Of a DNA stretch of 64,000 nucleotides, positions 1,170-44,178 are shown piece by piece. A program made the position numbers and the translations under genes. The notes under the pieces were generated by a model that worked only from the letters and a program-made list of their open reading frames with translations, was not told where the DNA came from and searched no databases. The stretch lies in NCBI GenBank assembly GCA_005400705.1, contig GCA_005400705.1_4079.1; one strand, 5' to 3'. Origin of the DNA: Escherichia coli. GTDB lineage: Bacteria > Pseudomonadota > Gammaproteobacteria > Enterobacterales > Enterobacteriaceae. Positions within the stretch are counted from its first letter, which is position 1. Each line of letters opens with the position of its first letter.

Positions 1170-1172
1170 AAT

Positions 1173-2695: not shown

Positions 2696-2698
2696 ACG

Positions 2699-19674: not shown

Positions 19675-21164
19675 TCTGTGTCCTTATGTATGCGATAAAC
19701 AGTATTAGGTTTAACTGCGTCATGTAATGGAACTTTGTTATCACTATTTACAAACTGTGTAAGTGCTAGGTCTGCACCTTCCCACGGTTTTCTTCCACCA
19801 TAATCAAAAATAACCCATGAATTCTTAGTTGCATTGAATTCCCATAACGTAACTGGGGTATAATCGGTACGATAGAAATAGTCACCATCTACTGCATCAG
19901 TCGGGAACATATTTCCTTCAGGGACAGTACCTCGTGCTGGTGGAATTTTAGGACGATAATCTTGTTGGGAATCAATATTACCATATACACAATTGGACGT
20001 GAATGGTTCATTGACATAAGTTACCTTTGGTTCCCCCCACTTGTCATCATTATACTGATAAATGTGTGGTTCTTTATAAAAAATACAAAAATCTTCCACA
20101 TCTTCTGGTGGAACATCACTGGTAGTATATTCTACATCACAATTTAACCATTTTTTAGCACTTTTATCATATTGATACAACGTATAACCTGTTACATCTG
20201 CGTCATTTTCTTTAAAGAAGAAGTCACCATCCATTGGTTTTCTGGGAAAGATAGTTCCACGCTTGACTTCCACAGAAATCCATGTATCATTAACAAACTC
20301 TTTGAGTACTGGGTATGTTTTTTTCAAAAAATACATTCCATCGGCAGGTTCTTCTGGGAAATCATAACCATTAAGCATATATTTTGATAAATCTACAGTA
20401 TCAGGTCGATCATCATACAAATGTTCATTTGTAAAATGAATGTAGGGTACTTCATCATCAGCTTGCATGATGATACGGTTCATGATATCCATTTCATTGC
20501 CATAGTTACTGTTTTCCGACGAACCATCATCGGTATTTCCATTACCATTATTAGGGTCATCTGGATTATCAGGATAATTATTGTTACCGAGTAAATCGGA
20601 GTACTCAGGTGAGTCGGTTAGCGGTTTAACTCTAAGTTTATAAATGTGATGTTGCCACGTAACCGAGTATCCCTCAGATGTACGAAATGCATCTTGGACG
20701 ACATAGAAGCGGTTTAGACCTGTATCTTTACCCAATACATCAAAATCACGTAAATTTGGTAGTTCTATCACATCCCCTGGCATGATTTTTCTACCTAAAC
20801 GCTGCATCATTGTATTATAATGGATTGTGATGTCCATAGTGTTGAAATTAAAGAACAATCCTGGGATTTTCAAGTCTGGAGTTGCTTCTTGAACTTGATA
20901 GACACAACTAAGTGTGATAGCTTCAAGGTTGTAGTTTCTGTTTGGTGTGTCACCAAAAATTAAATCGCCAATACTTGACACAACTGATCCTGAAGATGTA
21001 TAATCACCTCCATAGGATAAGTCAGTGTTGTCAGCAACTTGTTTTGGACCGACATATGCATAAAGCCACATGTCAACTCCACCAATGTTGTATTGTTCAG
21101 CAATGGCAGAATCAATGAACTTGTAATCATTGGTTCTACCTTTTTTCCACATTCTATATGTCAT
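19671..21164 (-). CDS. virion structural protein with three DG-x-(Y/F)F repeats
   Basis: ORF-track 19671..21176 begins with TTG; start moved to ATG 21164 which has a GGAGA RBS; repeated EPADGMYF / KPMDGDFFF / DAVDGDYFY units. Confidence 0.45.
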   Translation of the reverse strand: MTYRMWKKGRTNDYKFIDSAIAEQYNIGGVDMWLYAYVGPKQVADNTDLSYGGDYTSSGSVVSSIGDLIFGDTPNRNYNLEAITLSCVYQVQEATPDLKIPGLFFNFNTMDITIHYNTMMQRLGRKIMPGDVIELPNLRDFDVLGKDTGLNRFYVVQDAFRTSEGYSVTWQHHIYKLRVKPLTDSPEYSDLLGNNNYPDNPDDPNNGNGNTDDGSSENSNYGNEMDIMNRIIMQADDEVPYIHFTNEHLYDDRPDTVDLSKYMLNGYDFPEEPADGMYFLKKTYPVLKEFVNDTWISVEVKRGTIFPRKPMDGDFFFKENDADVTGYTLYQYDKSAKKWLNCDVEYTTSDVPPEDVEDFCIFYKEPHIYQYNDDKWGEPKVTYVNEPFTSNCVYGNIDSQQDYRPKIPPARGTVPEGNMFPTDAVDGDYFYRTDYTPVTLWEFNATKNSWVIFDYGGRKPWEGADLALTQFVNSDNKVPLHDAVKPNTVYRIHKDTE

Positions 21165-21206
21165 GATTGTCTCCAAAATAAATCGGGTATATCTTTATTT
21201 ACCTTG

Positions 21207-21234: not shown

Positions 21235-21274
21235 GTTTATTAATTAGAGTGACGTGAATCACATAGGAGAATAC

Positions 21275-23563
21275 ATGAATCTTACTCAATTGTTCAAAAA
21301 AAGCGACGAACTGGCAACATCTCTAGGTCATACATTCTTGACTATTGACCACGTAAGTGCCACAGTACTGACTATTGATAGCATCAAGAACGTATTTGAA
21401 GATATGAACATTGATGCAGACAAACTGCACAACCGCCTAATGAACTATCTTAAAAATACAACAGTTCCACATGCACCAAAAAGTGTTAAAGATGAAGACG
21501 CGAATCGCACTTCACTTCTAGTGAATCGCGTTGTACATGAGCTTTCAAAAAAATCAGTTATTGAACAACTAAAAAGTGATGATTTTTCGATTGATGCATA
21601 TTTTGTTCTATTCGAATGTCTGTCTTTCCCTAACACAGCACTAGAAGCTGCGTTAAAAGAAGAAGGTGTTAGCTGTACTGAAGCTGCACGTGCATTACAG
21701 AAACACGTTGAGTCACTTGATAAGGGTATCAACTTACAAAGTATTAATGACGAACCGATTGGAGATAAAAAAGTGGCCCAACAGCAGCAATCATCTAAAC
21801 AAAAAGGTTTGGAAGACTATACAACGAATCTAACTGCTCTTGCAAAAGAAGGCAAACTAGATCCTATGATTGGTCGCCAGAAAGAATTGTCTGCATTGAT
21901 TGAGACTCTTGCTCGCAAAACCAAAAAGAATGCTATTCTCACTGGTGAAGCTGGTGTAGGTAAAACACAAATCATCGACGGGCTTGCACAAGCTATTGCT
22001 GATGGTAACGTACCTGAACACTTGAAAGACGTTGAAATTCTTTCACTAAATGTTGGTGCATTGACTGCTGGTACTAAGTATCGTGGTGAGTTTGAAGAAC
22101 GCATCGACAATTTGCTAAAAGAACTAAAGAAACGTGAAAATACTATTGTTTTCATTGATGAAATTCATATTATGGTTGGGGCTGGTTCCGCAAGTAATGG
22201 TTCTATGGACATGAGCAATATGCTTAAGCCAGCACTTTCACGTGGTGAGATTCGTGTAATTGGTGCAACAACATATGATGAATATCGTAAAAATATCGAG
22301 AAAGATAGTGCATTAACTCGTCGTTTTATGAAAATTGACGTAGTTGAGCCGACAATTGATGAAACTCGTGCAATTGTTAATGGTTTGAAACCAACGTATG
22401 AAAAATTCCATAATGTTGAGTTCACATCTGATGCAATGGATGCTGTAATTTCTCTCAGTGATAAATTCCTGAAGAATAAGCACTTCCCAGATAAAGCAAT
22501 TGATCTAATGGACGCTGCTGCTGCAAAAGTTCGTTCACGTGACAACAATAGTAAGCTTATTACTGCCAATTTGATTCAAGAAGTTGTTGCTGGTATTGCC
22601 AATTTGGATATCAACGTGGTTGCATGTACTGAAAGTGATCGTATGCGTAATCTACCAGATGCACTACGCTCACGTGTATACGGTCAAGAGGAAGCTATTC
22701 AAAAATTAGTTGATAACGTGATGGTAGCTCGTGCAGGACTGCGTGACAAATCTAGTGTTCAGGGTGCATTTATGTTTGTTGGACCATCTGGCACTGGTAA
22801 AACAGAAATTACCAAAGCATTAGCAGATGCAACTGGTGCGGAACTGATTCGCTTTGATATGTCAGAATTTTCTCAAGAACATACTGTTTCTAAACTAATT
22901 GGTTCACCTCCAGGTTATGTTGGTCATGATTCTGGTAACGGTTTACTGTTGGATAAAATTGAGCAGTTCCCTAATGCAGTACTGTTACTTGATGAAATTG
23001 AAAAAGCAGATCGTAAAGTCCTACTAACCTTCCTACAGGTTTTGGATGAAGGTCGCCTGACTGGTTCACAAGGTAAAACTGTATATTTTAATAACGTAAC
23101 TGTTATTATGACTACAAACCTTGGTGCAGCAGATTCAACGAAGCGTAGTATTGGTATGAGCGGTAGTGATACTGCACAAGACAAGGCAATTAAAGCATTC
23201 TTGCCACCAGAGTTCATTAACCGTATTGATAGTATCGTTACGTTTAAAGACCTAAGCAGTGAAGCTATTGACAGCATCATTGATAAGTTCATGGGCAGTT
23301 TGAATGAACAAGTCAAAGACCGCAATGTTAAAGTTACATTGACAAAAGCTGCACGTGAATGGCTTGCGAAAAATGGGGTAAAAGTTGGCATGGGTGCACG
23401 TCCAATGAAACGTACCATTGAACAAAACATTCGTGTACCACTAGCTAAAGAAATGTTGTGTGGTTCACTTGTTAATGGTGGAAACATTACATTTGATGTT
23501 ATTGATGGTAAAATCGGTATTAAACCGAAACGTTCCAAAGCTGTAGATAAAGCACTGGCATAA
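21275..23563 (+). CDS. clpA: ClpA-type two-ring AAA+ unfoldase (Clp ATPase)
   Basis: Clp N-domain; D1 Walker [10 protein letters not shown]1 pore loop [10 protein letters not shown]1 Walker B IVFIDEIH; D2 Walker [10 protein letters not shown]2 pore loop GYVGHD, D2 Walker [10 protein letters not shown]; long colinear similarity to E. coli ClpA as recalled from memory; start set at ATG 21275 (AGGAGA RBS) rather than the GTG at 21254. Confidence 0.9.
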
Positions 23564-23565: not shown

Positions 23566-23598
23566 AAGAAAAGGAGAGCAATATGCTCTCCTTTTTTA
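23566..23598. terminator. bidirectional intrinsic terminator
   Basis: AAGGAGAGC / GCTCTCCTT inverted repeat followed by TTTTTATT between convergent clpA-like and giant baseplate genes. Confidence 0.75.
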
Positions 23599-26500
23599 TT
23601 ACTTAACTAATAATATATTTTTAATATCATTACCACTAACTTGTAGACTATCAGTGTATACTGAAAGATCTATAGTGTAACTATTTTGTGTGTAACGTTT
23701 TAACATATCATAATTACCTAAATTAATTCCATTGAAAGAATATGTAGTATTAAGTTTAAAATCATGTTCTGCACTATACATTACACCACGGAGTAAATTA
23801 TTTGCATTTCTAACTTCAACTTTTTCATATCCAATCGATATAATATCATTCATGTTCGCGGCTGAACCGGATAAAACATTATTTCTAATACTATAAGGAC
23901 TTATTGATTTAGGTTGAGAAACATAGGTTGTATTTTCTTCACTAATGGTTGTGATGTTAGTAACAGTACCACCAACAACACCGATATACATACCGTCAAC
24001 CATTGGGAATCCATAAACCCATATCCCTTCATTATTTCTAAACGGTTGAATAACACTTGAATCATATTCAATAACGTTGATTTCTAAACTATCAGTCATT
24101 TTAGTTCTTGCTAATTCACTAAGAACTCCCGCACCAGTAATTGGTAGGTTATAACCGTTGTCGATAGTAATTCCATCAACATCAAATATTTCGTTAGAGA
24201 TTATCCAAACGTCAACGTCATCTGGTGTTATTCCGTCATTGTACTTACCACCATTTAAAGTAGTATCGTAGAAAACATCATAATTAATTACATCAATTGT
24301 GTAATTTCTATTTTGTTCGTACAATTTGATACCATTCTTCACAAATTCTGGGTCAGCAAATGTTCTAACACGAACAATGTTCAATGCAAGAGGCTGTACT
24401 GGCTCATTTTGTTGTGCAAGAGTGATATTATCATAACGGAGAACTGTACCAGTACTCTCATCAATCAATTCAATCGTTTCTTTACCTGTATTTCTTACAG
24501 TGAATAGGATCGGAGTTGTATTGTTTTTGATGTTAGATACACGCAAGATTGTTTCCCATGTGTGATTTTGATATCTCACAAAATCTTCACCATCAGGAGT
24601 GAAAATCATCACCTTATCACCATCAGATAGGTCATTGTCAACTATTTCTGCTTCAGTTAAGCTATTAATAGATCTCACACGATAGAAATATTTTTCATCA
24701 AACTTCGATGTTGTTTTATTAATATCATTTTCAATCTTAGCATATGAAGGAATACTTACAATTGCTTCTGTATGTTTATATGGATTGATAATTGCCATAC
24801 CTTCAGTTTGATATCTGCTGTTATCACGTAATTGTACAAGAGATACATTGTCAAACCCATATCCATCAACTGTAAATCTAATTTGACCTACATCACGCCC
24901 AGAAGGGTTTATGTCAGATATATCCACAATATAAGGATCAACTTCATCATCTTTAACTTCCCATTTTATTGAAGAAGTTTGAGATTCCAATGCTAGGTTA
25001 TCAAATGCATTCATATCATTGAAGTACTTAGCTTCAGTAATACTATCAAGTATATATTGATAATCAGAATACATTGGATTATTTTGATCTAGTGGTAAAT
25101 CATCAAGATTTATTTCAGCTAGTTCAACCATTTCACCATTTGTGATAAAATAATCTTCCATGAAATCATCAATACTTTGTTCATCAGGTATACTTTGATA
25201 TACACCGTTAACATTTAAGTAAACATATTTTCGTGGAATCATTGTAATTGCATAGATATCAATTGGGGTCTTACTAAGAATCTCTTCAGCTTTTTCGTAC
25301 TTATCAGTAGCGTCTTTGTCGAATAACCCTCTCATACCTGCTAATACGTGAATAGCATCAGTATAGAAACGGGTATCACCACCTACTTCATCATAACGAT
25401 AAACATATACACCATACTCAACTTCAAGTTTAACTTTTACTTCATAGTCTGATGCGTCAGGATTTTTATCTTTAATTAATGAAATGTATTTTTGATACAA
25501 TTCACTGCTTATTTCAAAATATCCATAGTTATAATCATTACTAGAAGAAAAGCCTAATGGAAGTCTAGTACTAGGATTGTCATTATAAGTAAGTCCACTA
25601 AATCCACATCCAACTTCATCGTGAATTTTCTCATCACTTATATCTTTATAAAGTTTCAAACGGTTTGCCAATGTGTTATACTGAACATATTGTCTAAGGT
25701 CAGTAAACATATCGTTATGCGTTGATTCTTTATAAACACGTTCCAATGTAGCAGTGAATTCATCAGTTGCTTCTAAATCTTCCGCATGGTCTTTATACCA
25801 CTGGTTAACGCCATATGCTGTTCCTAGTGTTACATCCAATTCTGGATAGTAGATTTGCATTTGATAAGCAATAAGAAGATCGAAAGTTTCTTCACTATAT
25901 TCTGGGAAAGAATATATATAACGTTGTAATTCATAGTTACTAACAGCATCCTTTTCATTGGATTGATATTTGTTATTAACACTTACTAATTCATTTATGC
26001 TTGCCAAATCTTCATTTGGTTTACACTGAATATTATCATAATGCATAATAATATCAATTTCTTGGAATCTTCTATTTGGTGTAACGAAATCACTTGGTAG
26101 TGAACCTACCTGTTCCCATTTTTGGGTAATTTCATTAAATTGAGCGTACTCATAATCCCAAATATCTTTTTCAGTTTTGATCCAAGAACCATCAACGAAA
26201 ATATATCCATTAGGATCTAAATCATTACATAGACCTTTTATTAAATCATCATCAGATGTCTTTTGCTCTATTTGTGAACGAATTTTAGTTCTATAAGGTT
26301 TAACTTCTTCAAAATATTCAACAATTTGATTAATCAAATTATCGTTTGAATAGTTTTGAACTAATGATTGTTCCAAACCAACAATATAGATATATGATGT
26401 TTTAAATACCCAATCCACAACACTTTGTTCAACATGTACATATTTGACCATATCAAAAACAATTTCGCTTTGATGTAAATCGAAAGAATTTTTGAGTAAA

Positions 26501-29500
26501 GCTAGTGCTTTACGAACGTTGATTTCACGATTGCTTAGTGAACCATTATCATTATGAACACTATAATCTGCGTAAAGCATATCATTGAGTTCAACTGTAC
26601 TGTTTTCACGACCAATCGCTTTCCAATAAATTGAATCGCGTGATTGTGATTTAATATACAATGTCCAAATGTTTTCACTATCGGTAACTCTGATAATATC
26701 GCCAACTTGGTAGTTTTTAGTATTAGCATCTTCTAAGCTTGACTCTTGAGTATAAGTCGTGTTACTATCATACCCAACATCATACCAATCAGCATATGAC
26801 CAGTACTGAGTCATGTCCAATGAAGTTCCTAGTGATTCAACATAATCAGATTGTTTAATCATTTTATGTTGTCCCTCACCTTTGTTCTCTAACGTTATAG
26901 TAACAACACTACCCGCGTTTGCTGGACTATTCATTAACTGAATATATCCATTTTCGTCGAAGTGAATAAAATAAACAGCACTAGAAGTTAATGGATTTGG
27001 TAGATATCCACTAGTACTTAAAATAACAGCGTCATTTTCTTTAAATTTATCACTTTCAACTGCAATAACTAATTCATTATTGTAAGACAATACACGGAAA
27101 GAAACTTCATTCGGATTAACTTCAGTGGTTTTAACATTAAACACATCTTCCATAACAACACTATTAGTGGTTATGTTTTGTGACCTATAATAATTATTAG
27201 CACTTTCTACAAAGTTTCTACGAGCTTCTATAACATTTTGGAACCAAGTTTTGTTTGATCCTAAACCGTTATCAACATCTGGATATAATAAATTAATCAC
27301 AGAACCTGATTCAGTTGTTTCTTGACCAATTAGTGAGTTCCACATTGAATCCCAAATTAGTGGGTTAAAGTTATAGCTGTCACCTTCTTTACATAGTTGA
27401 TACTGGTCATGTTTAACAACTTCAGTACTATCCATGTAATAAGAAACAGTTAAAATACTAGTATCATCATTCACTTTAAATTGCATATTACTAAGAATAA
27501 ACGAGTTTTCATTGATTGGAGCGAACCAAGGAATGTTTAGCTGTGTTGGATCTTTAATAATACGAGCAATGTCAGTACATGATTTTGTTCTGGTATGTAG
27601 TGGTGGTACATAAATTGTATCACGTACCCAGAAATAGTATTTTGTCACATAACTATCAGTTGAACTATCATATTCCAAAAATGTACTATAATTATCTTCA
27701 AGTGCAGTTCCACTTGGTAGATACATAGTATTATTTTTGTTTTTCTTAGCAACATCTTTACAGTATTTGTCCCAGTTATATGGCTCAACTGGTGAACAAA
27801 CCCACTCTAACACATCAATTGTACTATGTGGTAATAAACGACCCCAGTTGTAACGTTTGTATTCATTTGTTGCATCAATGTCAACATTACCGTCTGCGTC
27901 ATAAATTGCACGAGTATAATCCAAATAAAATGCAGTGCTAGTGTTCCACCATACTTGACCAACTTTATCAGCACCCCAAGCTTGGATTAACTCTCCATTA
28001 CTATTATACTGTGCAGGATCAACTGGTGAAGTATATGTTACGTTTTGCATAGCCGCACCTGGAATAACACCATTAATTGGGTCATAAACGTTTAGATATA
28101 ACTCAGTAATGTTAGTACGTTCGTCATATGTCGTTGGACGATCAAATAAAGTACTTTGTGGTGCTTTAAAACTATATTTCTTGTCAATGTAAGCTTGACG
28201 TTCATCAGTACTGACAAAACGTGATACATAACGATACAAACGTGGGCGTGTATCTGGATCAGTAAATTCAATATCAATAGAAGTGTCAAATGGAACTACC
28301 ATAACTTTAGGATCAGAACCAGCAGTATAATATTGACTTTCTACTGTTAAAGTATCTGGCATAAAGTTAGTTTCATCAACAAAATAATAATAATCACCAT
28401 CTTCAAGTGGTACATTATCAGTTAATGTTACTTTACAAAATTGTTCAGCATACACATCGGTATTTTCAATAGGTGTTATAGAAACCATTTGTACATTAGT
28501 ATCAACCAATTCAAAAATGTTCCACAAACCATTACCGTCTTTAAACATCCACACAGATTCAGGATTTTCACCTTTACCATTAGTATAAGTTATGCGGTCA
28601 TTATATGCAGTACTGAAATCTTTTGTTGTGTACGATACTTCATCCAATGTTACTGGACCAATATCTGGAAGTTGGATATTTTCACTTCTTCCACTACGCA
28701 TTGGGAATGAGAACTTACCATTTGGACGTGTAATCCAACGAGGATCTTTACCCTGCTCACCGAAGTATACAATATGATTACCATTACCATTTGAAGTTGC
28801 ATTTACATCAAAAGAAACCATTTGAGGTTGTTGTTTAAATTGGTCATTAATCAATTTAAATTGAAGATTTTTCTTACCATCAATATTACCATATGTACCA
28901 ATTTTAAATGCCCATTCTTGTAATGCTTTATATTCATCTGTGTCATATGATTTAGAAACACGAAGTACACGTTCTAAAACTTGGTTAGTACCTTTATCAT
29001 GAATGAATCCTTTATAGAAATCAACACGACTAACATCACTACTAATCATACGCTGTAGATAATCACGAGATTGATAACCAATCAAATGGTTTGACAACTC
29101 TTGTAATTGTACATCACTTACTGGAGTTTCACTATCATAATAATGTTGGAAATCCGACACTAATTTTTCAAATGATGGTAGTGTTCCAGCTTCCAAGATA
29201 ATAAATCCAGGAGCTTGTAGACGACCAGTCCATGAACCAGTAATGTAGCCATACATTTTAATTAATTCTTGAATAGAACCATAAGTTGGCTGATAGATAT
29301 AATCACCAAAAATAGTCTTATCATCAAAAATAACAGCATGTTCATATGAACACAAACTTAAACGAATTAATGCTATACGTTTATTGGATTCTAAAGTTCT
29401 AACAGTAAAGATATTACCAATACGAGAAGTTTCAATTTCATATTGACGTATACCTTGGTTGTTATCATCAAGTAATGACCACACACCACCGTTATTTTGT

Positions 29501-32500
29501 GTAATAGATTGAACTGAACCAAAGTCTGCACCAAATTTAGCATTTGCTGCACTTGGTGTACAAGAAATAAATTCACCCGTTACCAGAGAATTCTGACTCC
29601 AGATCACAAAATCTTTAGCAATAGTGTTCCAATCTTGTTGAGCACCACTATCATTTACATCTTCAAAAATCCAGCCATGTTCTTTAAGATATTCACCATA
29701 ACCACAAATAAAAGTATAAACTTCTTGGTAACTATTAAAAACTTTACCATATTCAATGGAAGCTTCAGATTTCCATTCGTTATAATGAACAACATTGCGG
29801 TTTTCTAATTTAAGAGTTACTTTTCTACCATTTTTCACTGGCAGTTTATATTTGAATTTAGCACCAACTAAATCATATCCATCAATCTGATATGCACTAC
29901 CATTCCAAGTAATTTTGATAGCACTCATTTGTTCATCACGAATATTATTCGAGCGAACAAGACCAATAGTTTGGTTTTCTTGTGAAATAAGACCAAATGA
30001 TTTAGCATTGAATGTTAGCTGATCTGCTTTAGTAAAACCACCAATTTTATGACCAACATTTATATAAGAAGAACGAACTACATCCCCATATTTGGTTGTA
30101 ATGTTTTTATTTTGATACATCAAATAATCACTAACAAACATTTGATAACCAATTGTTCTTGTGTTATTTTCACCATGAACTACAGTGTTTTTATCAAAAT
30201 TAATACGCTTACGTGTATCACCATAAAGGAATTGTGAACCATCAGTGAATACTTCTTTTAAATTGTCATTTCGGGTATCCCAAAAATAGTTAGCAAATTG
30301 TGCAGGTTTAGCTTTATACAAAAGTAGCATTTGGTCATATGCAAACAATGTAGTGTTCATGTATGTAAATTCCATGTCACCCATGTCACCATATGCCCAA
30401 GGTTCTGCTCTATGATTTAAAGAACCAGACACTAAACCTAAAATTTCAGGTGCAATATATTCAACAACACAAATATCAATACCGGAAGATGTTTTATTAC
30501 CAGTTTTTGTGATTTTAAATGGCTGTACACCAAATCTTTTATATTTGTCATACTGTCCACGGCGATCACCAGACAAAATAGTACCAGTACTACTATCTCC
30601 GATAGTGCCGTCGATATCCCATAGACCACTAGGAACTAAATCTCCTTGTTCATTCATAACAAGTGCTTCATATACATATACCACATCACTATCACGCTCA
30701 CCAACTTGAACAGCAGTTGGTTCATATTCTTGGTTCCACCAAGTTGGACGCTGTGAAAAGCCAAACATTTCCCACGGATGTGTTGCAGGGCGATATGTAC
30801 CATATTGGTCAGTATAAATTGCACGCCATGAACCACGAGCAGGAATTTCAGTACTTTGACCATTAACTACATAATAAGTGCCAGTATAGTTCCAAGTTCT
30901 CCAATTGTTAGGATCATAATCATGTGTACTATTACTGATACCATTAGTTGCGGTGAAGTTAATGTATCCACGTAGTAATAATGTTTGTTTCTCTTCAGCA
31001 CTATATTCAGTTTTAGTGAAATATGGTGTAGGGAAAAGGTCATCACTATTCAATACTGGTACGTAATCAACATCTTTGAATTTATTATCAATACTATTAA
31101 AAATTCTATTTTCTAATTCATATACAACATCATCCATTTTATCAACACCATTGATAACACGGTATGCTTTGGAAATAATACCAGTATGACTGATGTTATA
31201 ACAGCTTGGTTTACTACCAGCAGTGAGGAATGTCGCTTTTTCTGGTACATATGCTTGAAGAATACCTAAGAACTGTGGTGTTGGTGGTATAAATGCACGA
31301 ATGAATCCAGAAGTACTTCCAACATTATCATAATAGAATGGGAATGAACTATCACGTCCCATATTAATAGTAGTTAAAATTGCATCAACAATGTTTGCAG
31401 CACTATTTTGTAAAAAGTCTGATGGATTTTCATCATACATACGAAGCATTTGTGTATTAAATTTATTAATGAATCTAAAATATTCAGATTGCATAAACAT
31501 AGTTGCTTCAAACAAATCAATATCTTCATTTGCAGTATGTGCCATCAATGGAAGCATAGATGCTTCATTTTGGATAATTTTAGTACCTACGCCATTATTA
31601 ACCAATCCTTTAGCCAAACGTTCTTCATAGTCATTGAAATCATCAGAAGAACCACGTGTAATGTTCTTTTGAATAATATCCTGAAAATGTAAAGTGTAGT
31701 CACCTTGGTTAATGTATATAATATTAGAATTATATGGGTTATTTTGTAGGTTGATTGGAACTTCATATGCACCTAATTCTTTATTAGGAGTTACAGTACT
31801 GCTATAAGTTCTGATTTGAATAACAGAATCTTCATCCAAATCTACAGTACTATCTAGAGTGATGCTTTGTACTTGACCTTTTGAAACATTTTTGGTATAT
31901 TTGGACACATCAACACCATCAACCACAACTTCAATAATATCAGAATCATTATCTAAAACTTTTTGTGCCAATTCGAATGTATGGTCATATTTTACAATCT
32001 GAACACCATCACCAGTAATTGGATGCCAATCTAGATAAGTTTCACGGTCAGCTTTATAGTACTGATATGTTCTATCAACTTCAATAACATATGCATACAT
32101 ACCATCAACTGGTTCTTTAAAAACTTCCATATCATAAACAGTACTGAATACACGATACATATCAGTACGTTGGACTTGTGGAGTTTGTTTTACAAATTGT
32201 TTAGAGTACTCTTCTGAACGAACCCAATCGGTTTGAAGATTCATTTCATTATTTTCATCAATAATGTTATAATAGTATAAACCATCAATTTCAACTTCTT
32301 TCCCAAGATGGTCATAGGTATAACGTTGGGATTGTAAAAAGTTTTCATAAATGTAATAATTATAATCACCAAGTTCAATGTTATATCCATATACACTATC
32401 AGTTGCATAGTTGTAATTTATTTTAAAACCAAACAACTCTGAACCTTTAAAGTTACTTGATGGATATGTAGTACTGTTGTCAAGTTTGATACCATTACGA

Positions 32501-33570
32501 TCATAAAGTTGGAATTTAGGGAATATGTTAACACTAGTTTTTGATTGTGCACGAACCCACAAAGATCCATTCCAGTACATAGAACTATTACCATACTCAT
32601 TACCTTTAGTGATTAGAACAACATCACCATCTTGAGGTTCACCACTTGGGCGTGATTCGGTTTCTTCTTCTGGATCTAGTGCTAAACCATAAACACGCGT
32701 ACCATCTTGCATTTTTTTCACATATACATTATAAATTCTATTGTTTTCACCATTGTTACCAATACTGGTGAATAGAATACGCATTCCATCTTGCGGAATA
32801 ATACCATCAATACGTATACCACTATTAATATCTTTTTGAACGATATCTTCAGGTTTAATAATATCAGAGAACAGATCAACAGTTCCACGGAATTTTGTAC
32901 CGTAGTTCATTAGCTCAATATTTTTATTATATTCAATAATTGGTGCACGTGCACGAATAAAACGTGAATCTTGCATTAATTCTTCAGTTAATATTGAGCC
33001 ATCTTCTAATGTTTCACCTAAAGTATACCAAAAGTTTTGTAGTGACCATGTATTACCATTAAGTGCTCCACGTTCCATTACAATGTAATCAGGTGAAGTA
33101 ATATTATAAGAGTTTTTAGTATCCCAAAGATATGAGCTAAAATTGTTCATTTTATTTGGGTTAATAGCTGGAGTCCATGCATAAAACTTACCGTTGAACA
33201 AACGGCTTTCATTATCGGTTAGTGCTCCATAATGATTCATGTATCCAACTAGATCATCATAAAATTGAATTGAACGAATTGTCGAATCATCATTTTTTGA
33301 GACGTAAGCAGTGGACAACTGATAAAGTTGACGTGCTACAGTACTTTCATGTAAGAAGATATTACCAGCAGCGGCAGGAGAACCCATATCACCAATATAG
33401 CCGTCAACTAATTCGTTTTCAGCCGGATTAAACCATTGTTGAATAACATCATCACTGACTTTTTGAATATCTTCTAAGCCTTGCATCCACTCAGGCAATC
33501 TTTTAATAAAAAGCTTCTTCTGTACTGCTTCAGCCATCTGTGTAGGTTGAAACTTAAAATTATTAGTCAT
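23599..33570 (-). CDS. giant baseplate wedge / tail structural protein (about 3320 aa, gp7-like position)
   Basis: Single uninterrupted ORF of about 10 kb directly downstream of the gp6-like gene; ORF track gives 33600 as start but ATG 33570 has a GGAG RBS at 6-nt spacing and the first ATG has none. Confidence 0.55.
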   Translation of the reverse strand: MTNNFKFQPTQMAEAVQKKLFIKRLPEWMQGLEDIQKVSDDVIQQWFNPAENELVDGYIGDMGSPAAAGNIFLHESTVARQLYQLSTAYVSKNDDSTIRSIQFYDDLVGYMNHYGALTDNESRLFNGKFYAWTPAINPNKMNNFSSYLWDTKNSYNITSPDYIVMERGALNGNTWSLQNFWYTLGETLEDGSILTEELMQDSRFIRARAPIIEYNKNIELMNYGTKFRGTVDLFSDIIKPEDIVQKDINSGIRIDGIIPQDGMRILFTSIGNNGENNRIYNVYVKKMQDGTRVYGLALDPEEETESRPSGEPQDGDVVLITKGNEYGNSSMYWNGSLWVRAQSKTSVNIFPKFQLYDRNGIKLDNSTTYPSSNFKGSELFGFKINYNYATDSVYGYNIELGDYNYYIYENFLQSQRYTYDHLGKEVEIDGLYYYNIIDENNEMNLQTDWVRSEEYSKQFVKQTPQVQRTDMYRVFSTVYDMEVFKEPVDGMYAYVIEVDRTYQYYKADRETYLDWHPITGDGVQIVKYDHTFELAQKVLDNDSDIIEVVVDGVDVSKYTKNVSKGQVQSITLDSTVDLDEDSVIQIRTYSSTVTPNKELGAYEVPINLQNNPYNSNIIYINQGDYTLHFQDIIQKNITRGSSDDFNDYEERLAKGLVNNGVGTKIIQNEASMLPLMAHTANEDIDLFEATMFMQSEYFRFINKFNTQMLRMYDENPSDFLQNSAANIVDAILTTINMGRDSSFPFYYDNVGSTSGFIRAFIPPTPQFLGILQAYVPEKATFLTAGSKPSCYNISHTGIISKAYRVINGVDKMDDVVYELENRIFNSIDNKFKDVDYVPVLNSDDLFPTPYFTKTEYSAEEKQTLLLRGYINFTATNGISNSTHDYDPNNWRTWNYTGTYYVVNGQSTEIPARGSWRAIYTDQYGTYRPATHPWEMFGFSQRPTWWNQEYEPTAVQVGERDSDVVYVYEALVMNEQGDLVPSGLWDIDGTIGDSSTGTILSGDRRGQYDKYKRFGVQPFKITKTGNKTSSGIDICVVEYIAPEILGLVSGSLNHRAEPWAYGDMGDMEFTYMNTTLFAYDQMLLLYKAKPAQFANYFWDTRNDNLKEVFTDGSQFLYGDTRKRINFDKNTVVHGENNTRTIGYQMFVSDYLMYQNKNITTKYGDVVRSSYINVGHKIGGFTKADQLTFNAKSFGLISQENQTIGLVRSNNIRDEQMSAIKITWNGSAYQIDGYDLVGAKFKYKLPVKNGRKVTLKLENRNVVHYNEWKSEASIEYGKVFNSYQEVYTFICGYGEYLKEHGWIFEDVNDSGAQQDWNTIAKDFVIWSQNSLVTGEFISCTPSAANAKFGADFGSVQSITQNNGGVWSLLDDNNQGIRQYEIETSRIGNIFTVRTLESNKRIALIRLSLCSYEHAVIFDDKTIFGDYIYQPTYGSIQELIKMYGYITGSWTGRLQAPGFIILEAGTLPSFEKLVSDFQHYYDSETPVSDVQLQELSNHLIGYQSRDYLQRMISSDVSRVDFYKGFIHDKGTNQVLERVLRVSKSYDTDEYKALQEWAFKIGTYGNIDGKKNLQFKLINDQFKQQPQMVSFDVNATSNGNGNHIVYFGEQGKDPRWITRPNGKFSFPMRSGRSENIQLPDIGPVTLDEVSYTTKDFSTAYNDRITYTNGKGENPESVWMFKDGNGLWNIFELVDTNVQMVSITPIENTDVYAEQFCKVTLTDNVPLEDGDYYYFVDETNFMPDTLTVESQYYTAGSDPKVMVVPFDTSIDIEFTDPDTRPRLYRYVSRFVSTDERQAYIDKKYSFKAPQSTLFDRPTTYDERTNITELYLNVYDPINGVIPGAAMQNVTYTSPVDPAQYNSNGELIQAWGADKVGQVWWNTSTAFYLDYTRAIYDADGNVDIDATNEYKRYNWGRLLPHSTIDVLEWVCSPVEPYNWDKYCKDVAKKNKNNTMYLPSGTALEDNYSTFLEYDSSTDSYVTKYYFWVRDTIYVPPLHTRTKSCTDIARIIKDPTQLNIPWFAPINENSFILSNMQFKVNDDTSILTVSYYMDSTEVVKHDQYQLCKEGDSYNFNPLIWDSMWNSLIGQETTESGSVINLLYPDVDNGLGSNKTWFQNVIEARRNFVESANNYYRSQNITTNSVVMEDVFNVKTTEVNPNEVSFRVLSYNNELVIAVESDKFKENDAVILSTSGYLPNPLTSSAVYFIHFDENGYIQLMNSPANAGSVVTITLENKGEGQHKMIKQSDYVESLGTSLDMTQYWSYADWYDVGYDSNTTYTQESSLEDANTKNYQVGDIIRVTDSENIWTLYIKSQSRDSIYWKAIGRENSTVELNDMLYADYSVHNDNGSLSNREINVRKALALLKNSFDLHQSEIVFDMVKYVHVEQSVVDWVFKTSYIYIVGLEQSLVQNYSNDNLINQIVEYFEEVKPYRTKIRSQIEQKTSDDDLIKGLCNDLDPNGYIFVDGSWIKTEKDIWDYEYAQFNEITQKWEQVGSLPSDFVTPNRRFQEIDIIMHYDNIQCKPNEDLASINELVSVNNKYQSNEKDAVSNYELQRYIYSFPEYSEETFDLLIAYQMQIYYPELDVTLGTAYGVNQWYKDHAEDLEATDEFTATLERVYKESTHNDMFTDLRQYVQYNTLANRLKLYKDISDEKIHDEVGCGFSGLTYNDNPSTRLPLGFSSSNDYNYGYFEISSELYQKYISLIKDKNPDASDYEVKVKLEVEYGVYVYRYDEVGGDTRFYTDAIHVLAGMRGLFDKDATDKYEKAEEILSKTPIDIYAITMIPRKYVYLNVNGVYQSIPDEQSIDDFMEDYFITNGEMVELAEINLDDLPLDQNNPMYSDYQYILDSITEAKYFNDMNAFDNLALESQTSSIKWEVKDDEVDPYIVDISDINPSGRDVGQIRFTVDGYGFDNVSLVQLRDNSRYQTEGMAIINPYKHTEAIVSIPSYAKIENDINKTTSKFDEKYFYRVRSINSLTEAEIVDNDLSDGDKVMIFTPDGEDFVRYQNHTWETILRVSNIKNNTTPILFTVRNTGKETIELIDESTGTVLRYDNITLAQQNEPVQPLALNIVRVRTFADPEFVKNGIKLYEQNRNYTIDVINYDVFYDTTLNGGKYNDGITPDDVDVWIISNEIFDVDGITIDNGYNLPITGAGVLSELARTKMTDSLEINVIEYDSSVIQPFRNNEGIWVYGFPMVDGMYIGVVGGTVTNITTISEENTTYVSQPKSISPYSIRNNVLSGSAANMNDIISIGYEKVEVRNANNLLRGVMYSAEHDFKLNTTYSFNGINLGNYDMLKRYTQNSYTIDLSVYTDSLQVSGNDIKNILLVK

Positions 33571-33611
33571 TTTTGGACTCCATATAATTCGTTCATTCAT
33601 TTGATTTATTT

Positions 33612-33643
33612 ATGATATAAAAAAGGCGTTCCGAAGAACGCCC
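33612..33643 (-). terminator. intrinsic terminator after the gp6-like gene
   Basis: On the minus strand GGGCGTTC-TTCG-GAACGCC hairpin (UUCG tetraloop) followed by TTTTTTATAT. Confidence 0.65.
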
Positions 33644-33649: not shown

Positions 33650-36600
33650 TTAAGAACCGATATTAATATTACTTTTAGCTAGTGAGTTAACAATTTGAAC
33701 ATTTTCAACAGATGCAGTACTCAAAAATATTTGGTCTGAACGTGAAGGGATTTCAAATAGAGAGCCAAATTTTGAATTTGGATTTTGTGCAACTATAACA
33801 ATGGTACTAATATGTCTACCTAACTGTGAGTGTATGTAAGTACACAAATCAGTATAATAGAAACTTTCACCGAAATCCCAGTTATCAACATTGAAGTATT
33901 CATTAGTTAATGCTATAACATTTTGACGAATTTCATCGTCACTCATTGTGCTGTTTGGTAATTTCACTACTTTAAAATCAGCTTTGTAATCTTCAGCAGC
34001 ACTGTTGCCAAATAAAGGTAAGTACTCAGCACTATGCCAAATAATACTATCACTAATGACTATTTTTTGTTCAACATCTTTGAACATATCTTTCAATTCA
34101 ACCGATGTAGGTGGTTTAGGAATACTACCAACAGCATTATTTTTCAACCAAACGTCAACTTCAGTTTTATATGAATTGGTTAATACATACATATCAATTA
34201 AGTTTGTTCTACTAGGATCAATGCGATTGTCGTCAGGTGCATAGTGTTTCCAATGGAAGTCTATACTAGTACGTGCATTAGTTTTAACAGTGTACTGTGA
34301 AGTAACATCTTTGTATCCATAATAATCTAGCTTCTGATTCTCGTCAGCATTAGTTCCCATGTTATTAATTGCACGATAAAAAGCCAATTCAGGACTAACA
34401 GTGCCAGTATCATCGGAATAAGTTAAATTACTAATTAGCTGTCCTAAACGATCATTGTTATTACCAACTGTTTGTTCAATAAAATAATATTTACCATCAT
34501 AGTTAAAACCAACTAAAAATCCAGAACCTTTACTATATAATCCACTCAATGTGGTTGAACGAATTGCGTTATTTCTAACAAATTCAGTTCTTTTATATGC
34601 ATTCGGCTCTGCCAAGGCTTGTTCCATTGTATAAGACCACGATGAATCAAGAAGTGTGAAGGTATCATTTGGTAACGACAGTACTGATATAGTGAAATCA
34701 CTATTTTCCTGAAATACCAAAATACCACCATATTTTAATGCATCGGTTCCAGTCCAAGTAGGAACAATTTCTTTAAATTGGTTTGGTTCCAATGGTATAC
34801 CATTACTATCTACTTTCCTAGATGTAACAATAACACGAGAACCATCTAGATAGCCATTCTCTTGTTGAATTGTGTCATAAATTTGAAAATCTATATTACT
34901 TGTCAATCCTGAATTACTACTACTAGTAGTGTTAGATGATAAAATTTCAATCTTATCACTTTGAACTGTACCAGTACTAATATCAGTAATTTTTTTAGAT
35001 GATACAAAGTAAAATCTTACTTTTTCTCCACCCACAAAAATATATTCAATACCGTTAGCATCAAATTCCCAAGTTTCTGCTGTATATTTTACATTAATTA
35101 TAATTAAAACTTCATTTCCATTATATACAATAGTATCATCATTGGTACTTACTTCAATAGGAACCCATGATGTCGTTTCTTTGTCATGTACAATAACAAA
35201 ATCAGTTTTTTTATCTAGCATAGCAGAAATTGCTTGAACTTCAACCGAGTTAAATCTAGTTCTATATGGTAAAATGTACTCTATGGCTTGCATTCCACTT
35301 GGAACCGATGTACTCAGTACATAAAATCCATTATCCAATACACTAACTACACTAGCCCATATAGTAGTTCCAGAATTAGAAAATTTAATTAGAGTACCAA
35401 CCTGATATGAACCATAAACTGTACCAGATGAACCCAAAATTCTACCATATGTGTTAGTTGTATAATTTGAATTGTATACCGGAGTCCATGCTTGTTGTAT
35501 TTCAATACCAATTGTATTTGATGGAAACGCTTGGTAACGTTGTATTACCGCATTTTCACCAATCAATGGTTGAATATTGTCAATAACAATACTAGCATTT
35601 GTTTTTGTAGTTGGTAGCAATAATGATCTATTAAATTGTGTGTTTTCTTGATATAATGCACCATCATCACTAAAAACATCGGTATTTTGATACTTACCAG
35701 TAGGATCATTAATATCAATAAATCTTGATTGTCCACTATAAATTCTATTAATAGCTTTAGATTTAAGTACAGTATTGCCTAAACTAAGTGGTGCAATATT
35801 ATAATCTTCACCATTGACAAAACGGTTTTGTGTATAGTACATTTGTGGTGCACGTGCTTTAATCTGCTCAATAGTCTCTGCACTTTGTGCACGGTCGGAC
35901 TCATATTGTAATGAAAAACGTATATCCAATGTACTAGATTCATAACTTGACTGTGTTTTTGTACGATATGTATATTTTACGCTTTTATTTTGAATTTCAG
36001 AAGTTTTAATGTTATATGTTTTACCATTACTAACACGATACCATACACGGAACGTCCCACGGGGAACAACACCACTTCTTGAGTCTGGGTACTTAATTGT
36101 TATTTGGTCTTTATCACGAGTAGTAACAGCAAAAATTGTTTTTAATTGACGATTAACAGTGTTATATGCAATACTTTCCATTGATGGAACTTTTGTCCAT
36201 TTGGTACGAACAATACCATCTTCATTTATTTCTTGAACCCATACATCAGTTTCGTTGATATTATCAACGTTAATATCTTGTATACGGTTCTCTTCACGGA
36301 TAGCATATTGATAATCTTGATATGTCAATGTACCTTGTACGAAATATACAAAAAACCCAGTATTTGGTGAGCTAAATCCATTACCATCATTTTGATAAAC
36401 AATATATTTTTGCTCTTGTGGTTCTGGATGTCGTTCTTCAACACCAACAGACGTAATATCAGGATTCACTACTTCAAATGTCATAGATTCACCATTGACA
36501 GTTGCAACAAATGGAATACTGGGTGCTGTCATTGGGATGGTGTTCATTCGATATAGTTGGCGGGAGACACCATTAACATCAATACGCTTGACTGGATTAC

Positions 36601-37111: not shown

Positions 37112-37172
37112 AATTTATTCCTTTAAATCAGTAAAGTACTAGATCAGTACTGGGAATTATATATAGAAATAT

Positions 37173-37200
37173 TTATTCAAAAAGAAAAGCACTCCGAAGA
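37173..37200 (-). terminator. intrinsic terminator after the gp25-like gene
   Basis: AAGCACTC-TTCG-GAGTGCTT hairpin on the minus strand followed by TTCTTTTTG. Confidence 0.6.
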
Positions 37201-37212
37201 GTGCTTTTATAA

Positions 37213-37608
37213 TTATAAAGACGAAACTGAATATGTTGCCATTCGATTATTACTTCTTGCATCAAATACTATAGTAAGTTCTTCTAATGCGTCCAATACT
37301 ACGTACTGTAATACAATATTCATTTGGTATCCATATTCTATTCTTGAAATTTGTAATTTTTTAAGATTTAAACGTGGGTCTAAGCTAATTATTCTACGGG
37401 CATCTGCTTCTAAAAGGTTGATAGTATTATAACCTTCCAATTCAAATAGCAAATCCCATGCAATAAACCCATAGTCAGCATCAAATGCTCGTTCACCTTT
37501 TTTTGTATTGAAATGATTCATTAAATCTTGGCGAACCAATTCACTATCATACAATGTTTCAGTTCTACCAACTACAGGGGTAGAAAACCCTTTAAAAACA
37601 ACTGCCAT
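37213..37608 (-). CDS. baseplate wedge subunit, gp25 / GpW-like
   Basis: 131 aa; size, position (after spike and lysozyme, before gp6-like) and sequence pattern (RAFDADYGFIAWDLLFE) consistent with the gp25 family. Confidence 0.55.
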   Translation of the reverse strand: MAVVFKGFSTPVVGRTETLYDSELVRQDLMNHFNTKKGERAFDADYGFIAWDLLFELEGYNTINLLEADARRIISLDPRLNLKKLQISRIEYGYQMNIVLQYVVLDALEELTIVFDARSNNRMATYSVSSL

Positions 37609-43086: not shown

Positions 43087-43401
43087 TTAGCCTATGTTTC
43101 GAGTACCATTAAGATAATTTTGTACTCTTTGATTTGCTGGTATTCTAATTGTTACTCCACTTTTAAAATTATATATAGGATCTTCTCCTAGTATGTCTGG
43201 ATTTAACAATGCGAAAATATAATATAAGCGTTCATTACCATACATTTCGTATGCTAAACGCCAAGGTTGATATTCATATTTCAATGGGATCTCATAAAAA
43301 TCATCAGTATCAGCCGGAACAATATCACGTGGTAAATTATACCCAAGATACCATGTTTGTTTCACCTTAGCGTAAGGTGAGTATTGACTATAGTTGGACA
43401 T
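43087..43401 (-). CDS. LysM-like tail protein (GpX-like), tentative
   Basis: 104 aa; C-terminal segment YEIPLKYEYQPWRLAYEMYGNERLYYIFALLNPDI...SGVTIRIP fits the LysM pattern; position before the hub as in pyocin/Mu-like modules. Confidence 0.4.
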   Translation of the reverse strand: MSNYSQYSPYAKVKQTWYLGYNLPRDIVPADTDDFYEIPLKYEYQPWRLAYEMYGNERLYYIFALLNPDILGEDPIYNFKSGVTIRIPANQRVQNYLNGTRNIG

Positions 43402-44132: not shown

Positions 44133-44178
44133 CTTTTTGATTCTCCATAATAAGGGAACATTTGATGTATTTATACGT

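What the first reader, a model, noticed from the sequence alone, without database searches (positions are those of the whole stretch)
23599..33600. Giant (about 3300-residue) baseplate-position protein
A single ~10 kb ORF occupies the position normally held by a ~1000-aa gp7-type wedge protein, immediately after the gp6-like gene. It is likely a fusion of wedge and peripheral or adhesin functions. The annotated first ATG lacks an RBS, whereas ATG 33570 has one and lies downstream of a CATAAATA element.
Basis: partly seen in the sequence, partly recalled or inferred. Interest (0 to 1): 0.5.

Follow-up and report, generated by a model that had tools for sequence, protein, structure and literature searches.

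The report
Giant jumbo-phage baseplate-module virion protein
The 10-kb gene is real and encodes a 382-kDa virion protein, already known by mass spectrometry but never given a function, that sits where simpler tailed phages encode their gp7-type baseplate wedge protein yet shows no detectable sequence or fold similarity to gp7 or to any solved structure.

Summary
An intact ORF lies at 23599..33600 on the minus strand, directly after the gp6-like gene. The window is a 121Q/PBECO4/phAPEC6-type (RaK2-like) jumbo coliphage. The true start is the second ATG (33570), giving 3323 aa and 381.9 kDa.

The protein is already published as a virion protein of unknown function: phAPEC6 gp245 and CBB_236 were both detected by mass spectrometry.

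New here:
- It belongs to a very large family (1567 clusters at 50% identity) in which essentially all full-length listed members are giant (about 2200-6400 aa).
- Residues 1-~2450 form a conserved core, with insertion hot-spots that carry CBM5/12, FG-GAP or LamG domains in distant members.
- The last ~870 aa are lineage-specific.
- In one lineage the C-terminal module (from residue ~2366) is a separate gene.
- The order gp25-like, gp6-like, giant recurs in several divergent lineages.

Best reading: a positional and functional analogue of gp7 that also builds the peripheral baseplate. That role is inferred, not shown.

The parts
23599..33570 (-). Coding sequence of the giant virion protein as it is most likely translated (3323 aa + stop; 381.9 kDa, pI 4.6)
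   Evidence: ORF list and translation. Start supported. Mass. Virion MS of the 98.5%-identical phAPEC6 gp245 and of CBB_236.
33571..33600 (-). In-frame 10-codon extension to the first ATG; most likely not translated
   Evidence: No SD. The extension is absent or non-conserved in homologues. In RaK2 and CBB the upstream ATG is not in frame with the ORF. The CATAAATA motif ends only 7 nt before it.
33578..33581 (-). Shine-Dalgarno GGAG, 7 nt before ATG 33570
   Evidence: Conserved in 121Q, RaK2 and CBB.
33607..33614 (-). CATAAATA, a T4-late-promoter-like element (NATAAATA)
   Evidence: NATAAATA motifs lie 17-59 nt upstream of many structural genes in the window. The motif is conserved in RaK2 and CBB. 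A gp55-like late sigma factor is annotated at the equivalent of 44264..45103. Promoter function is inferred.
33624..33643 (-). Intrinsic-terminator-like hairpin between the gp6-like gene and the giant gene
   Evidence: The hairpin is kept with compensatory base changes in RaK2 and CBB.
23569..23595 (-). Terminator-like hairpin (12-bp stem plus T-run) immediately after the stop codon
33196..33570 (-). Residues 1-125: conserved, partly helical N-terminal segment; candidate anchor to the gp6-like pair
   Evidence: Invariant L25-P26, Q30, E33 and Q36 across the family. AlphaFold pLDDT is below 50 for residues 1-71 even though the segment is conserved. In myophage A-1(L) the gp7-like gp32 contributes residues 1-107 to the wedge helical bundle (PMC10966104). 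The role here is inferred.
26476..33570 (-). N-module, residues 1-~2365: family-wide conserved core
   Evidence: BLAST and MAFFT conservation maps. Residues 1-1200 modelled at pLDDT 85.4, pTM 0.78 with no PDB match. The homologue P0072 ends at this boundary.
28126..28353 (-). Residues ~1740-1815: main insertion hot-spot of the family
   Evidence: Distant homologues carry 500-1700 extra residues here. Occupancy and identity drop in this stretch.
26221..26475 (-). Residues 2366-2450: highly conserved helical block (…EVKPYRTKIR…) that opens the C-module
   Evidence: Invariant columns. Predicted as long helices with pLDDT below 50. It is the N-terminus of a separate ORF in L004/L005.
23602..26220 (-). 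Residues 2451-3323: lineage-specific, faster-evolving C-terminal region
   Evidence: Almost no match in the 49 distant homologues (at most 4, residues 2451-2550 only). Identity is about half that of the core within the RaK2-like clade, but the region stays collinear. Confident beta-domains occur in model 2, with no significant PDB match.
33650..37111 (-). gp6-like baseplate wedge gene (1153 aa), the presumed partner
   Evidence: phrog_10646 and phrog_219. DUF8360 in orthologues. Weak in-register hhalign match to the T4 gp6 N-terminus.
37213..37608 (-). gp25-like sheath-initiator/wedge gene (131 aa)
   Evidence: phrog_43. Annotated as GPW/gp25 in 121Q.

Best explanation
The gene encodes the largest structural protein of a RaK2-like jumbo myophage. 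I read it as a baseplate protein that fills the gp7/gpI/TssG slot of the wedge and also builds most of the intermediate and peripheral baseplate.

Proposed mechanism, with shown and inferred steps marked:
- Shown from sequence, function inferred: the gene appears to be a self-contained late transcription unit. It has a NATAAATA late-promoter-like element and terminator-like hairpins on both sides.
- Well supported: translation starts at ATG 33570 and gives a 3323-aa, 382-kDa acidic protein.
- Shown in near-identical and related phages: the protein is incorporated into virions.
- Inferred: one copy per wedge (six per virion) docks through its conserved, partly helical N-terminal ~100 residues onto two copies of the enlarged gp6-like protein, next to gp25-like and gp53-like subunits.
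- Inferred: the conserved ~2300-residue globular core takes the place of T4 gp7's outer domains and of gp8/9/10/11. No such homologues are annotated in the flanking 40 kb of 121Q, and the CBB authors' table of T4 homologues lists only gp6, gp25 and gp53 for the baseplate wedge.
- Inferred: the core offers docking sites for fibres. The separable, faster-evolving C-module (residues 2366-3323) lies at the periphery.
- Inferred: fibre-borne signals would pass through this protein to the gp6 ring to trigger sheath contraction.
For: Intact ORF and context. Virion MS: phAPEC6 gp245, 381.88 kDa, 17 peptides, next to gp244 'baseplate wedge'; CBB_236, 21 peptides, next to CBB_237.

The order [gp53-like]-[~750-900 aa]-[gp5-like hub, lysozyme domain where detected]-[gp25]-[~1125-aa gp6-like DUF8360]-[giant] recurs in members only 25-30% identical (L003, L004/L005). 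L008 has PAAR-gp25-DUF8360-giant. The same gp6-like/giant adjacency is reported for PA5oct (gp128/gp129) and AP-J-162 (gp56-58). This mirrors P2 V-W-J-I-H and T4 6-7. In L003 and L008 fibre genes (Gp34_trimer/Peptidase_S74, Collar) follow shortly after.

The N-terminal segment is family-invariant, always N-terminal in the 150 best hits, and has low pLDDT as a monomer. That fits an obligate hetero-oligomer interface like the N-terminal helical bundle of A-1(L) gp32.

The modelled first 1200 residues are non-repetitive and compactly folded (pTM 0.78, mixed alpha/beta), so that part is neither a fibre nor a tape measure.

Against: No sequence, profile or fold similarity to T4 gp7 or P2 gpI. These tests have limited power. 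The gp6-like positive control reached only E 0.002 by hhalign, and the shared gp7/gpI element is small and ordered only in the complex.

In two distant members (L009, L010) the giant gene is not next to gp25/gp6 genes. It is instead followed by a 'baseplate hub' family gene.

Location in the baseplate, copy number and contacts have never been observed. The phAPEC6 tail map is only ~25 A. Residues 1201-2123 were not modelled. Other unassigned structural proteins in the module (749 aa, 501 aa, 273 aa) could be the true gp7 analogue.
Confidence: 0.58

Rival explanations
1. It is a baseplate component, but only a peripheral scaffold or fibre-docking platform. The true gp7/gpI-type partner of the gp6-like pair would be one of the other unassigned structural proteins of the module (749 aa at 40826..43075, 501 aa at 19671..21176, or 273 aa at 43401..44222).
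For: No homology or fold match to gp7 or gpI. Adjacency to gp6 is lost in L009/L010. Several virion proteins in the module have no assigned role. Small-domain similarities are to fibre and tailspike adaptor domains, not to wedge cores.
Against: In P2-, Mu- and T6SS-type clusters the gene immediately after the gp6/J/TssF orthologue is the gp7/I/TssG orthologue (established knowledge; P2 order). The giant holds that slot in several divergent lineages. Its conserved N-terminal segment looks like a disordered-alone interface.
Confidence: 0.25
2. It is a virion protein located elsewhere: tail-sheath or capsid 'hair' fibres as seen on phAPEC6 and CBB, a tape-measure-like or ejected internal protein, or a virion-borne enzyme.
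For: phAPEC6 and CBB have unusual whiskers whose genes are unassigned. The function has never been tested. The strictly invariant E1410-H1411...D1416 and other motifs in the unmodelled middle region could in principle be catalytic.
Against: Baseplate-module synteny holds across lineages. There are no repeats or fibre-like features, and the modelled N-terminal part is a compact multi-domain fold. No enzyme family hit appears in Pfam, NCBIfam or PDB sequence searches. The mixed alpha/beta composition is unlike tape-measure proteins.
Confidence: 0.1
3. It is primarily a host adhesin or receptor-binding protein fused to a wedge domain.
For: Distant homologues contain CBM5/12, FG-GAP and LamG domains, and one isolate's copy is annotated 'chitin-binding type-3 domain-containing protein'. 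The C-terminal ~870 aa evolve about twice as fast as the core.
Confidence: 0.07

Closest known systems
T4 gp7 baseplate wedge protein (1032 aa; Pfam PF21428/PF21456/PF21427; PDB 5IV5)
   Same: The gene lies directly after the gp6 orthologue in a gp5/gp25/gp6/gp53 baseplate module. The protein is a large multi-domain virion protein. It is presumed to link the inner wedge to the peripheral baseplate and fibres.
P2 gpI / Mu gp48 / TssG / A-1(L) gp32: minimal gp7-type wedge subunits
   Same: The gene order matches: spike, gp25-like, gp6-like, then this gene, then fibres. A-1(L) gp32 uses its N-terminal ~107 residues for the wedge helical bundle and its C-terminus to hold a fibre. That is the layout proposed here.
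   Different: Those proteins are 150-370 aa and this one is 3323 aa. No Tail_P2_I Pfam hit was found and hhalign probability was at most 0.2%. An apparent N-terminal 'LLP...E' motif resemblance was not supported.
phAPEC6 gp245, CBB_236, RaK2 ORF070, PA5oct gp128, AP-J-162 gp58 (phrog_10938)
   Same: These are true homologues, from 98% down to about 30% identity. They are the largest or among the largest ORFs of their genomes. phAPEC6 gp245 and CBB_236 were detected in virions by MS. All lie next to the gp6-like gene.
   Different: None in kind. This window's gene is simply another member. In all those records it is called 'hypothetical', 'structural' or 'virion structural' protein, with no function assigned.
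Afp12/Pvc12/Alg12 of extracellular contractile injection systems (fused gp6-like plus gp7-like parts)
   Same: They set a precedent for enlarged, composite wedge proteins. Their gp7-like outer part is described as an evolutionary hot-spot that binds different fibres (PMC8894135).
   Different: No homology was tested or seen. Here gp6-like and the giant protein are separate genes. The size difference is large (Alg12 was modelled only to residue 551, against 3323 aa here).

Membership tests
T4 gp7 family (baseplate wedge protein gp7) | Sequence or profile similarity to gp7 (Pfam PF21428, PF21456, PF21427; gp7 family alignment) | tested here: not met
   Pfam scan: 0 families at E<=0.01. BLASTP against T4 gp7: best E 0.81. 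Segment HMMs against T4 baseplate proteins: scores near 0. hhalign of the 27-sequence giant alignment against 17 gp7 sequences: probability 0.5%. Power is limited, since the gp6 control gave only E 0.002.
T4 gp7 family (baseplate wedge protein gp7) | Fold similarity to the solved gp7 structure | tested here: not met
gp7 / gpI / TssG functional class (third chain of the wedge heterotrimer) | Gene immediately downstream of the gp6/J/TssF orthologue within the gp25-gp6 block | tested here: met
   Met in the window, 121Q, L003, L004/L005 and L008, CBB and RaK2, and PA5oct and AP-J-162. Not met in two distant members, L009 and L010.
gp7 / gpI / TssG functional class (third chain of the wedge heterotrimer) | A terminal helical segment that forms the core bundle with two gp6-type chains | tested here: inconclusive
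   Conserved helices are predicted at residues 21-47 but with pLDDT below 50. That is compatible with an interface that folds only on binding. No complex prediction or map is available.
gp7 / gpI / TssG functional class (third chain of the wedge heterotrimer) | Virion component at six copies per baseplate | not testable with these tools
   Virion presence is shown by published MS. Copy number and location are unknown.
P2 gpI family (Pfam Tail_P2_I, PF09684) | Profile similarity to Tail_P2_I | tested here: not met
   No Pfam hit even at E<=10 on 11 N-terminal slices. hhalign against a P2 gpI alignment: probability at most 0.2%. That alignment had low diversity (Neff about 2).
phrog_10938 giant virion structural protein family | End-to-end match to the family profile | tested here: met
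   5792.8 bits, residues 11-3330 against profile positions 1-3324 of 3324. 185 word-indexed homologues and 1567 representative clusters for the N-terminal 470 aa.
Phage receptor-binding proteins / adhesins | A recognisable binding module (CBM, Ig-like, lectin, beta-helix) in this protein | tested here: not met
Phage receptor-binding proteins / adhesins | A mosaic, host-correlated hypervariable distal region | tested here: inconclusive
   The C-terminal 870 aa diverge about twice as fast as the core, but they remain collinear across phages of different enterobacterial hosts.

The most novel reading that the evidence does not exclude
The family may represent a structurally new solution to building a contractile-tail baseplate. 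A single ~2400-residue conserved polypeptide with folds unlike any solved structure would replace both the gp7-type wedge subunit and the separate peripheral proteins (T4 gp8/9/10/11). It would do so throughout a very large, mostly uncultured clade of jumbo and mega phages, and would serve as a modular chassis into which carbohydrate-binding and other modules are inserted at fixed hot-spots.
Probability: 0.35. Interest if true: 0.6.

Novelty: new variant of a known kind. Interest (0 to 1): 0.42.

Why it matters
RaK2-like and related jumbo phages, including therapy candidates against E. coli, Klebsiella and Pseudomonas, have elaborate baseplates that no one has resolved. Their largest gene is still labelled 'hypothetical' or 'structural'.

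If this protein is the wedge and peripheral chassis, it would be central to how fibres dock and how the firing signal is passed on. It would extend the conserved gp25-(gp6)2-gp7 core to a partner with no recognisable homology. It would also give annotators a name for more than 1500 protein clusters in metagenomes.

The high-confidence AlphaFold model with no PDB neighbour also marks the protein as a good target for finding new folds.

Tried and rejected
1. Direct homology to T4 gp7, tested by BLASTP, segment HMMs, Pfam and hhalign against a 17-sequence gp7 alignment. All negative.

2. An apparent 'LLP...Q/E' N-terminal motif resemblance to P2 gpI (Tail_P2_I). Not supported by Pfam at E<=10 or by hhalign.

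3. Similarity of the conserved helical block or any other region to gp6-type N-termini (pseudo-threefold idea). hhalign was negative.

4. I briefly read PF12322 'T4_baseplate', found in the gene after the giant in L009/L010, as gp8. That would have bracketed the giant as 6-[7]-8. Checking showed gp8 is PF09215, and PF12322/phrog_150 is a 'baseplate hub' family, so the argument was dropped.

5. PDB sequence searches with the single protein and with a 27-sequence profile: 0 hits at E<=1 and E<=10 respectively.

6. Internal repeats by self-BLAST: none, so it is not a repeat-built adhesin.

7. Literature search for a structural or functional assignment of this protein in RaK2, CBB, phAPEC6, PA5oct, phiKp24, AP-J-162 or recent jumbo-phage cryo-EM papers: none found.

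8. NCBIfam: no hit.
Full report
OBSERVATION. The window contains an uninterrupted minus-strand ORF at 23599..33600 (3333 codons). Megablast places the window in the 121Q/PBECO4/phAPEC6 group of jumbo coliphages (Asteriusvirus, RaK2-like). The gene is 97-98.5% identical over its full length in 20 records and is intact in at least 35 records.

The upstream neighbours on the same strand, in order, are:
- a 1153-aa gp6-like wedge protein (33650..37111; phrog_10646, phrog_219 E 1.2e-20)
- a gp25-like protein (37213..37608)
- a free lysozyme (37624..38112)
- a gp5-like hub/lysozyme (38149..40812)
- a 749-aa structural protein
- a gp53-like protein (43087..43401)
Downstream lie a ClpA/B-like ATPase on the other strand, a 501-aa structural protein and a gp15-like protein.

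START CODON AND EXPRESSION SIGNALS. ATG 33600 has no purine-rich motif in the 25 nt before it. ATG 33570 has GGAG ending 7 nt upstream, which is the arrangement seen for nearly all ATG-start genes in the window.

Four further lines support ATG 33570:
- The PHROG profile of the family aligns from residue 11.
- RefSeq 121Q annotates the second ATG.
- Homologues down to 25% identity begin at the equivalent of M11, while the 10-residue extension occurs only in the closest relatives and is not conserved.
- In RaK2 the upstream ATG runs straight into a stop, and in CBB it opens a short out-of-frame uORF, whereas the ATAAATA motif, GGAG and the second ATG are conserved.

CATAAATA (33614..33607) belongs to a set of NATAAATA motifs found 17-59 nt upstream of many structural genes in the window. 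It resembles the T4 late promoter TATAAATA (established knowledge), and a gp55-like late sigma factor is encoded nearby. The motif ends 7 nt before ATG 33600, so a late transcript would start at or beyond that ATG; this last step is inference.

Terminator-like hairpins flank the gene at 33643..33624 and 23595..23569. The upstream hairpin is kept with compensatory changes in RaK2 and CBB. The product from ATG 33570 is 3323 aa, 381,880 Da, pI 4.6.

WHAT IS ALREADY KNOWN. phAPEC6 virion mass spectrometry lists gp245, 'hypothetical protein', 381.88 kDa, 17 unique peptides, 7.6% coverage. It appears directly after gp244 'baseplate wedge', 131 kDa (PMC7247149). In CBB, CBB_236 'structural protein' (21 peptides) lies next to CBB_237 'baseplate wedge', and the authors used 'the largest ORF' to orient the genomes of all RaK2-like phages (PMC5259590). 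PA5oct gp128 (one of its two largest proteins) neighbours gp129 'baseplate wedge'. AP-J-162 has gp56 (131 aa, wedge), gp57 (1198 aa, wedge) and gp58 (4455 aa, 'structural protein').

THE FAMILY AND ITS ARCHITECTURE. A word-indexed search returned 185 homologues, and the 120 listed are all 2780-5638 aa. An exhaustive profile search with the first 470 residues found 1567 representative clusters (E<=1e-3; 774 at E<=1e-30). Almost all full-length hits among the best 150 are 2200-6362 aa, and the module lies at their N-terminus. Among isolates the family occurs in RaK2-like phages and in Atu_ph07, Sinorhizobium Phosso, PA5oct-like phages and Salicola SCTP-2. It is always annotated as hypothetical or structural, and once as 'chitin-binding type-3 domain-containing protein'.

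Mapping conservation on the query gives the following picture:
- Residues 1-~2450 are shared by all members.
- Recurrent insertion sites lie at ~150-160, ~460-580, ~1740-1815 (up to ~1700 inserted residues) and ~2135-2240.
- Residues ~2450-3323 have essentially no counterpart in the 49 distant members (at most 4 of them reach residues 2451-2550).
Distant members carry CBM_5_12, FG-GAP_2 and Laminin_G_3 domains. Within the RaK2-like clade the C-terminal region is collinear but diverges about twice as fast as the core. The protein has no internal repeats.

A NATURAL SPLIT. In the 2780-aa member P0072, the same junction sequence appears in two independent metagenomes (L004 and L005). The ORF ends at the equivalent of residue ~2365 with TGA, and a second in-frame TAA follows three codons later. 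Then come GGAG, 9 nt, ATG and a separate ORF of at least 384 aa that runs off the contig. This second ORF begins exactly with the conserved helical block of the giant: BLASTP E 6e-13 to residues 2366-2439, and phrog_10938 positions 2369-2457 at E 8.5e-18. The protein is therefore made of at least two separable modules, 1-~2365 and 2366-end. However, fused forms dominate the family, so the split may equally be a secondary fission.

SYNTENY. Members only 25-30% identical keep the order [~100-aa gp53-like]-[700-900 aa]-[gp5-like hub, with a detectable lysozyme domain in L003]-[GPW_gp25]-[~1125-aa DUF8360 gp6-like]-[giant] in L003 and L004/L005. L008 has PAAR-gp25-DUF8360-giant. Fibre genes follow soon after in L003 and L008. 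This is the P2 order V-W-J-I-H and the T4 order 6-7. Two other distant members (L009, L010) lack this adjacency. There the giant gene is followed by a PF12322/phrog_150 'baseplate hub' protein. I first mistook that family for gp8 and corrected this on checking.

TESTS OF HOMOLOGY TO gp7-TYPE PROTEINS. All were negative:
- Pfam, including the three gp7 domain families that T4 gp7 relatives carry
- NCBIfam
- BLASTP against T4 gp7
- HMMs of nine segments against eleven T4 baseplate proteins
- hhalign of a 27-sequence family alignment against 17 gp7 sequences, probability 0.5%
- Pfam at E<=10 on eleven N-terminal slices
- hhalign against a P2 gpI alignment, probability at most 0.2%
- hhalign against gp6-type proteins
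The power of these tests is modest. The positive control (four gp6-like sequences against T4 gp6) reached only E 0.002, although in register.

INTERPRETATION. The following are shown:
- an intact, conserved, late-type gene
- translation most likely from ATG 33570
- the product present in virions of close and more distant relatives
- membership of a huge family of giant proteins with a conserved core, fixed insertion hot-spots and a separable, lineage-specific C-module
- folds with no solved neighbour in the modelled 2400 residues

The following are inferred:
- The protein sits in the baseplate. The basis is module synteny in many lineages.
- It plays the part of gp7/gpI/TssG. The basis is its slot after gp6. 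In addition, its N-terminus is conserved and of low confidence as a monomer, as expected for the N-terminal helical bundle that the gp7-like gp32 of A-1(L) contributes to the (gp31)2-gp32 wedge.
- Its large core substitutes for the T4 peripheral proteins. No gp8-11 homologues are annotated in the flanking 40 kb of 121Q, and the CBB authors' table of T4 homologues lists only gp6, gp25 and gp53 for the baseplate wedge.
- Its hot-spots and C-module face outward.

I put 0.58 on this reading. The rivals are a peripheral scaffold with another protein as the true gp7 analogue (0.25), a non-baseplate virion location or enzymatic role (0.10), and a primarily adhesin role (0.07).

NOVELTY AND SCORE. The gene and its virion association are already published, so the bare observation is not new. 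What is not in the literature I could search:
- the family-wide picture (more than 1500 clusters, with nearly all full-length members seen being giant)
- the core/hot-spot/C-module anatomy
- the natural split
- the explicit negative result for gp7 homology, together with the absence of any PDB neighbour
A specialist would not be startled that a jumbo phage has a giant baseplate-module protein. The combination of ubiquity, size, unknown folds and a key structural slot still makes it a worthwhile cryo-EM target. Interest is 0.42. I class it as a new variant of a known kind, namely a baseplate wedge or peripheral protein.

Noticed in passing
L004:18340-18400 and L005:12750-12810 (homologue P0072 and the next ORF): The giant protein is naturally split in one lineage. 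The first ORF ends with TGA, followed by a second in-frame TAA, then GGAG-9nt-ATG and a separate ORF that starts with the conserved helical block (window residues 2366-2439). The junction is identical in two independent metagenomes.
   Followed up: yes
window 21254..23563 (+): A ClpA/ClpB-type double-AAA+ ATPase (AAA_2, ClpB_D2-small, Clp_N) is encoded convergently, right after the giant gene's terminator. A phage-encoded unfoldase or chaperone next to a 382-kDa structural gene might assist its folding or assembly. It is not adjacent in the metagenomic relatives examined.
   Followed up: partly
window 37624..38112 (-) and 38149..40812 (-): A free-standing 162-aa lysozyme matches the C-terminal lysozyme domain of the adjacent 887-aa gp5-like hub protein (phrog_13211 positions 727-885, E 1.7e-63). 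This looks like a local duplication of the hub lysozyme domain.
   Followed up: no
window ~37112..37212, compared with L001:10721-11485 (121Q): 121Q carries an HNH homing-endonuclease gene ('associated with group I intron') between the gp25-like and gp6-like genes. The window has only about 100 nt there, so this mobile element is polymorphic within the species group.
   Followed up: no
window 16102..16710 (+); L003:21654-22241; L008:24941-25543: A ~200-aa protein of unknown function (phrog_11259) follows the giant gene within a gene or so in two distant relatives. It is encoded about 7 kb away in the window. It may be a conserved partner of the giant protein.
   Followed up: partly
window 33624..33643 (-); L011 and L012 equivalents: The hairpin between the gp6-like and giant genes is conserved in RaK2 and CBB through compensatory stem changes (GGGCGTTC/GAACGCC, GGCGTCC/GGACGCC, GGGCATC/GATGCCC). 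This argues that it is a functional terminator or RNA structure.
   Followed up: partly
window 33650..37111 (-): The gp6-like wedge protein is itself enlarged (1153 aa against 660 aa in T4). Its orthologues next to every syntenic giant gene carry Pfam DUF8360, although my Pfam copy gave no hit for the window protein. The enlargement appears to co-occur with the giant protein.
   Followed up: partly
Phage records OR699183.1, OR699181.1 and NC_027399.1 (hits H14, H20, H46): In a few public records the same gene is annotated as 3-5 separate 'hypothetical proteins'. This probably reflects sequencing or annotation errors rather than real gene fragmentation.
   Followed up: no
L009 and L010 (homologues P0088, P0087): In two distant, T4-like-portal contexts the giant gene is not next to gp25/gp6. 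It is followed instead by a PF12322/phrog_150 'baseplate hub' protein, so the module has been rearranged in these lineages.
   Followed up: partly
window 12201..14342 (-) and 5623..11148 (-): A colanic-acid-degradation/tailspike-like protein (713 aa) and an 1841-aa long-tail-fibre proximal subunit lie 9-18 kb downstream. Dedicated receptor-binding proteins therefore exist besides the giant protein.
   Followed up: no
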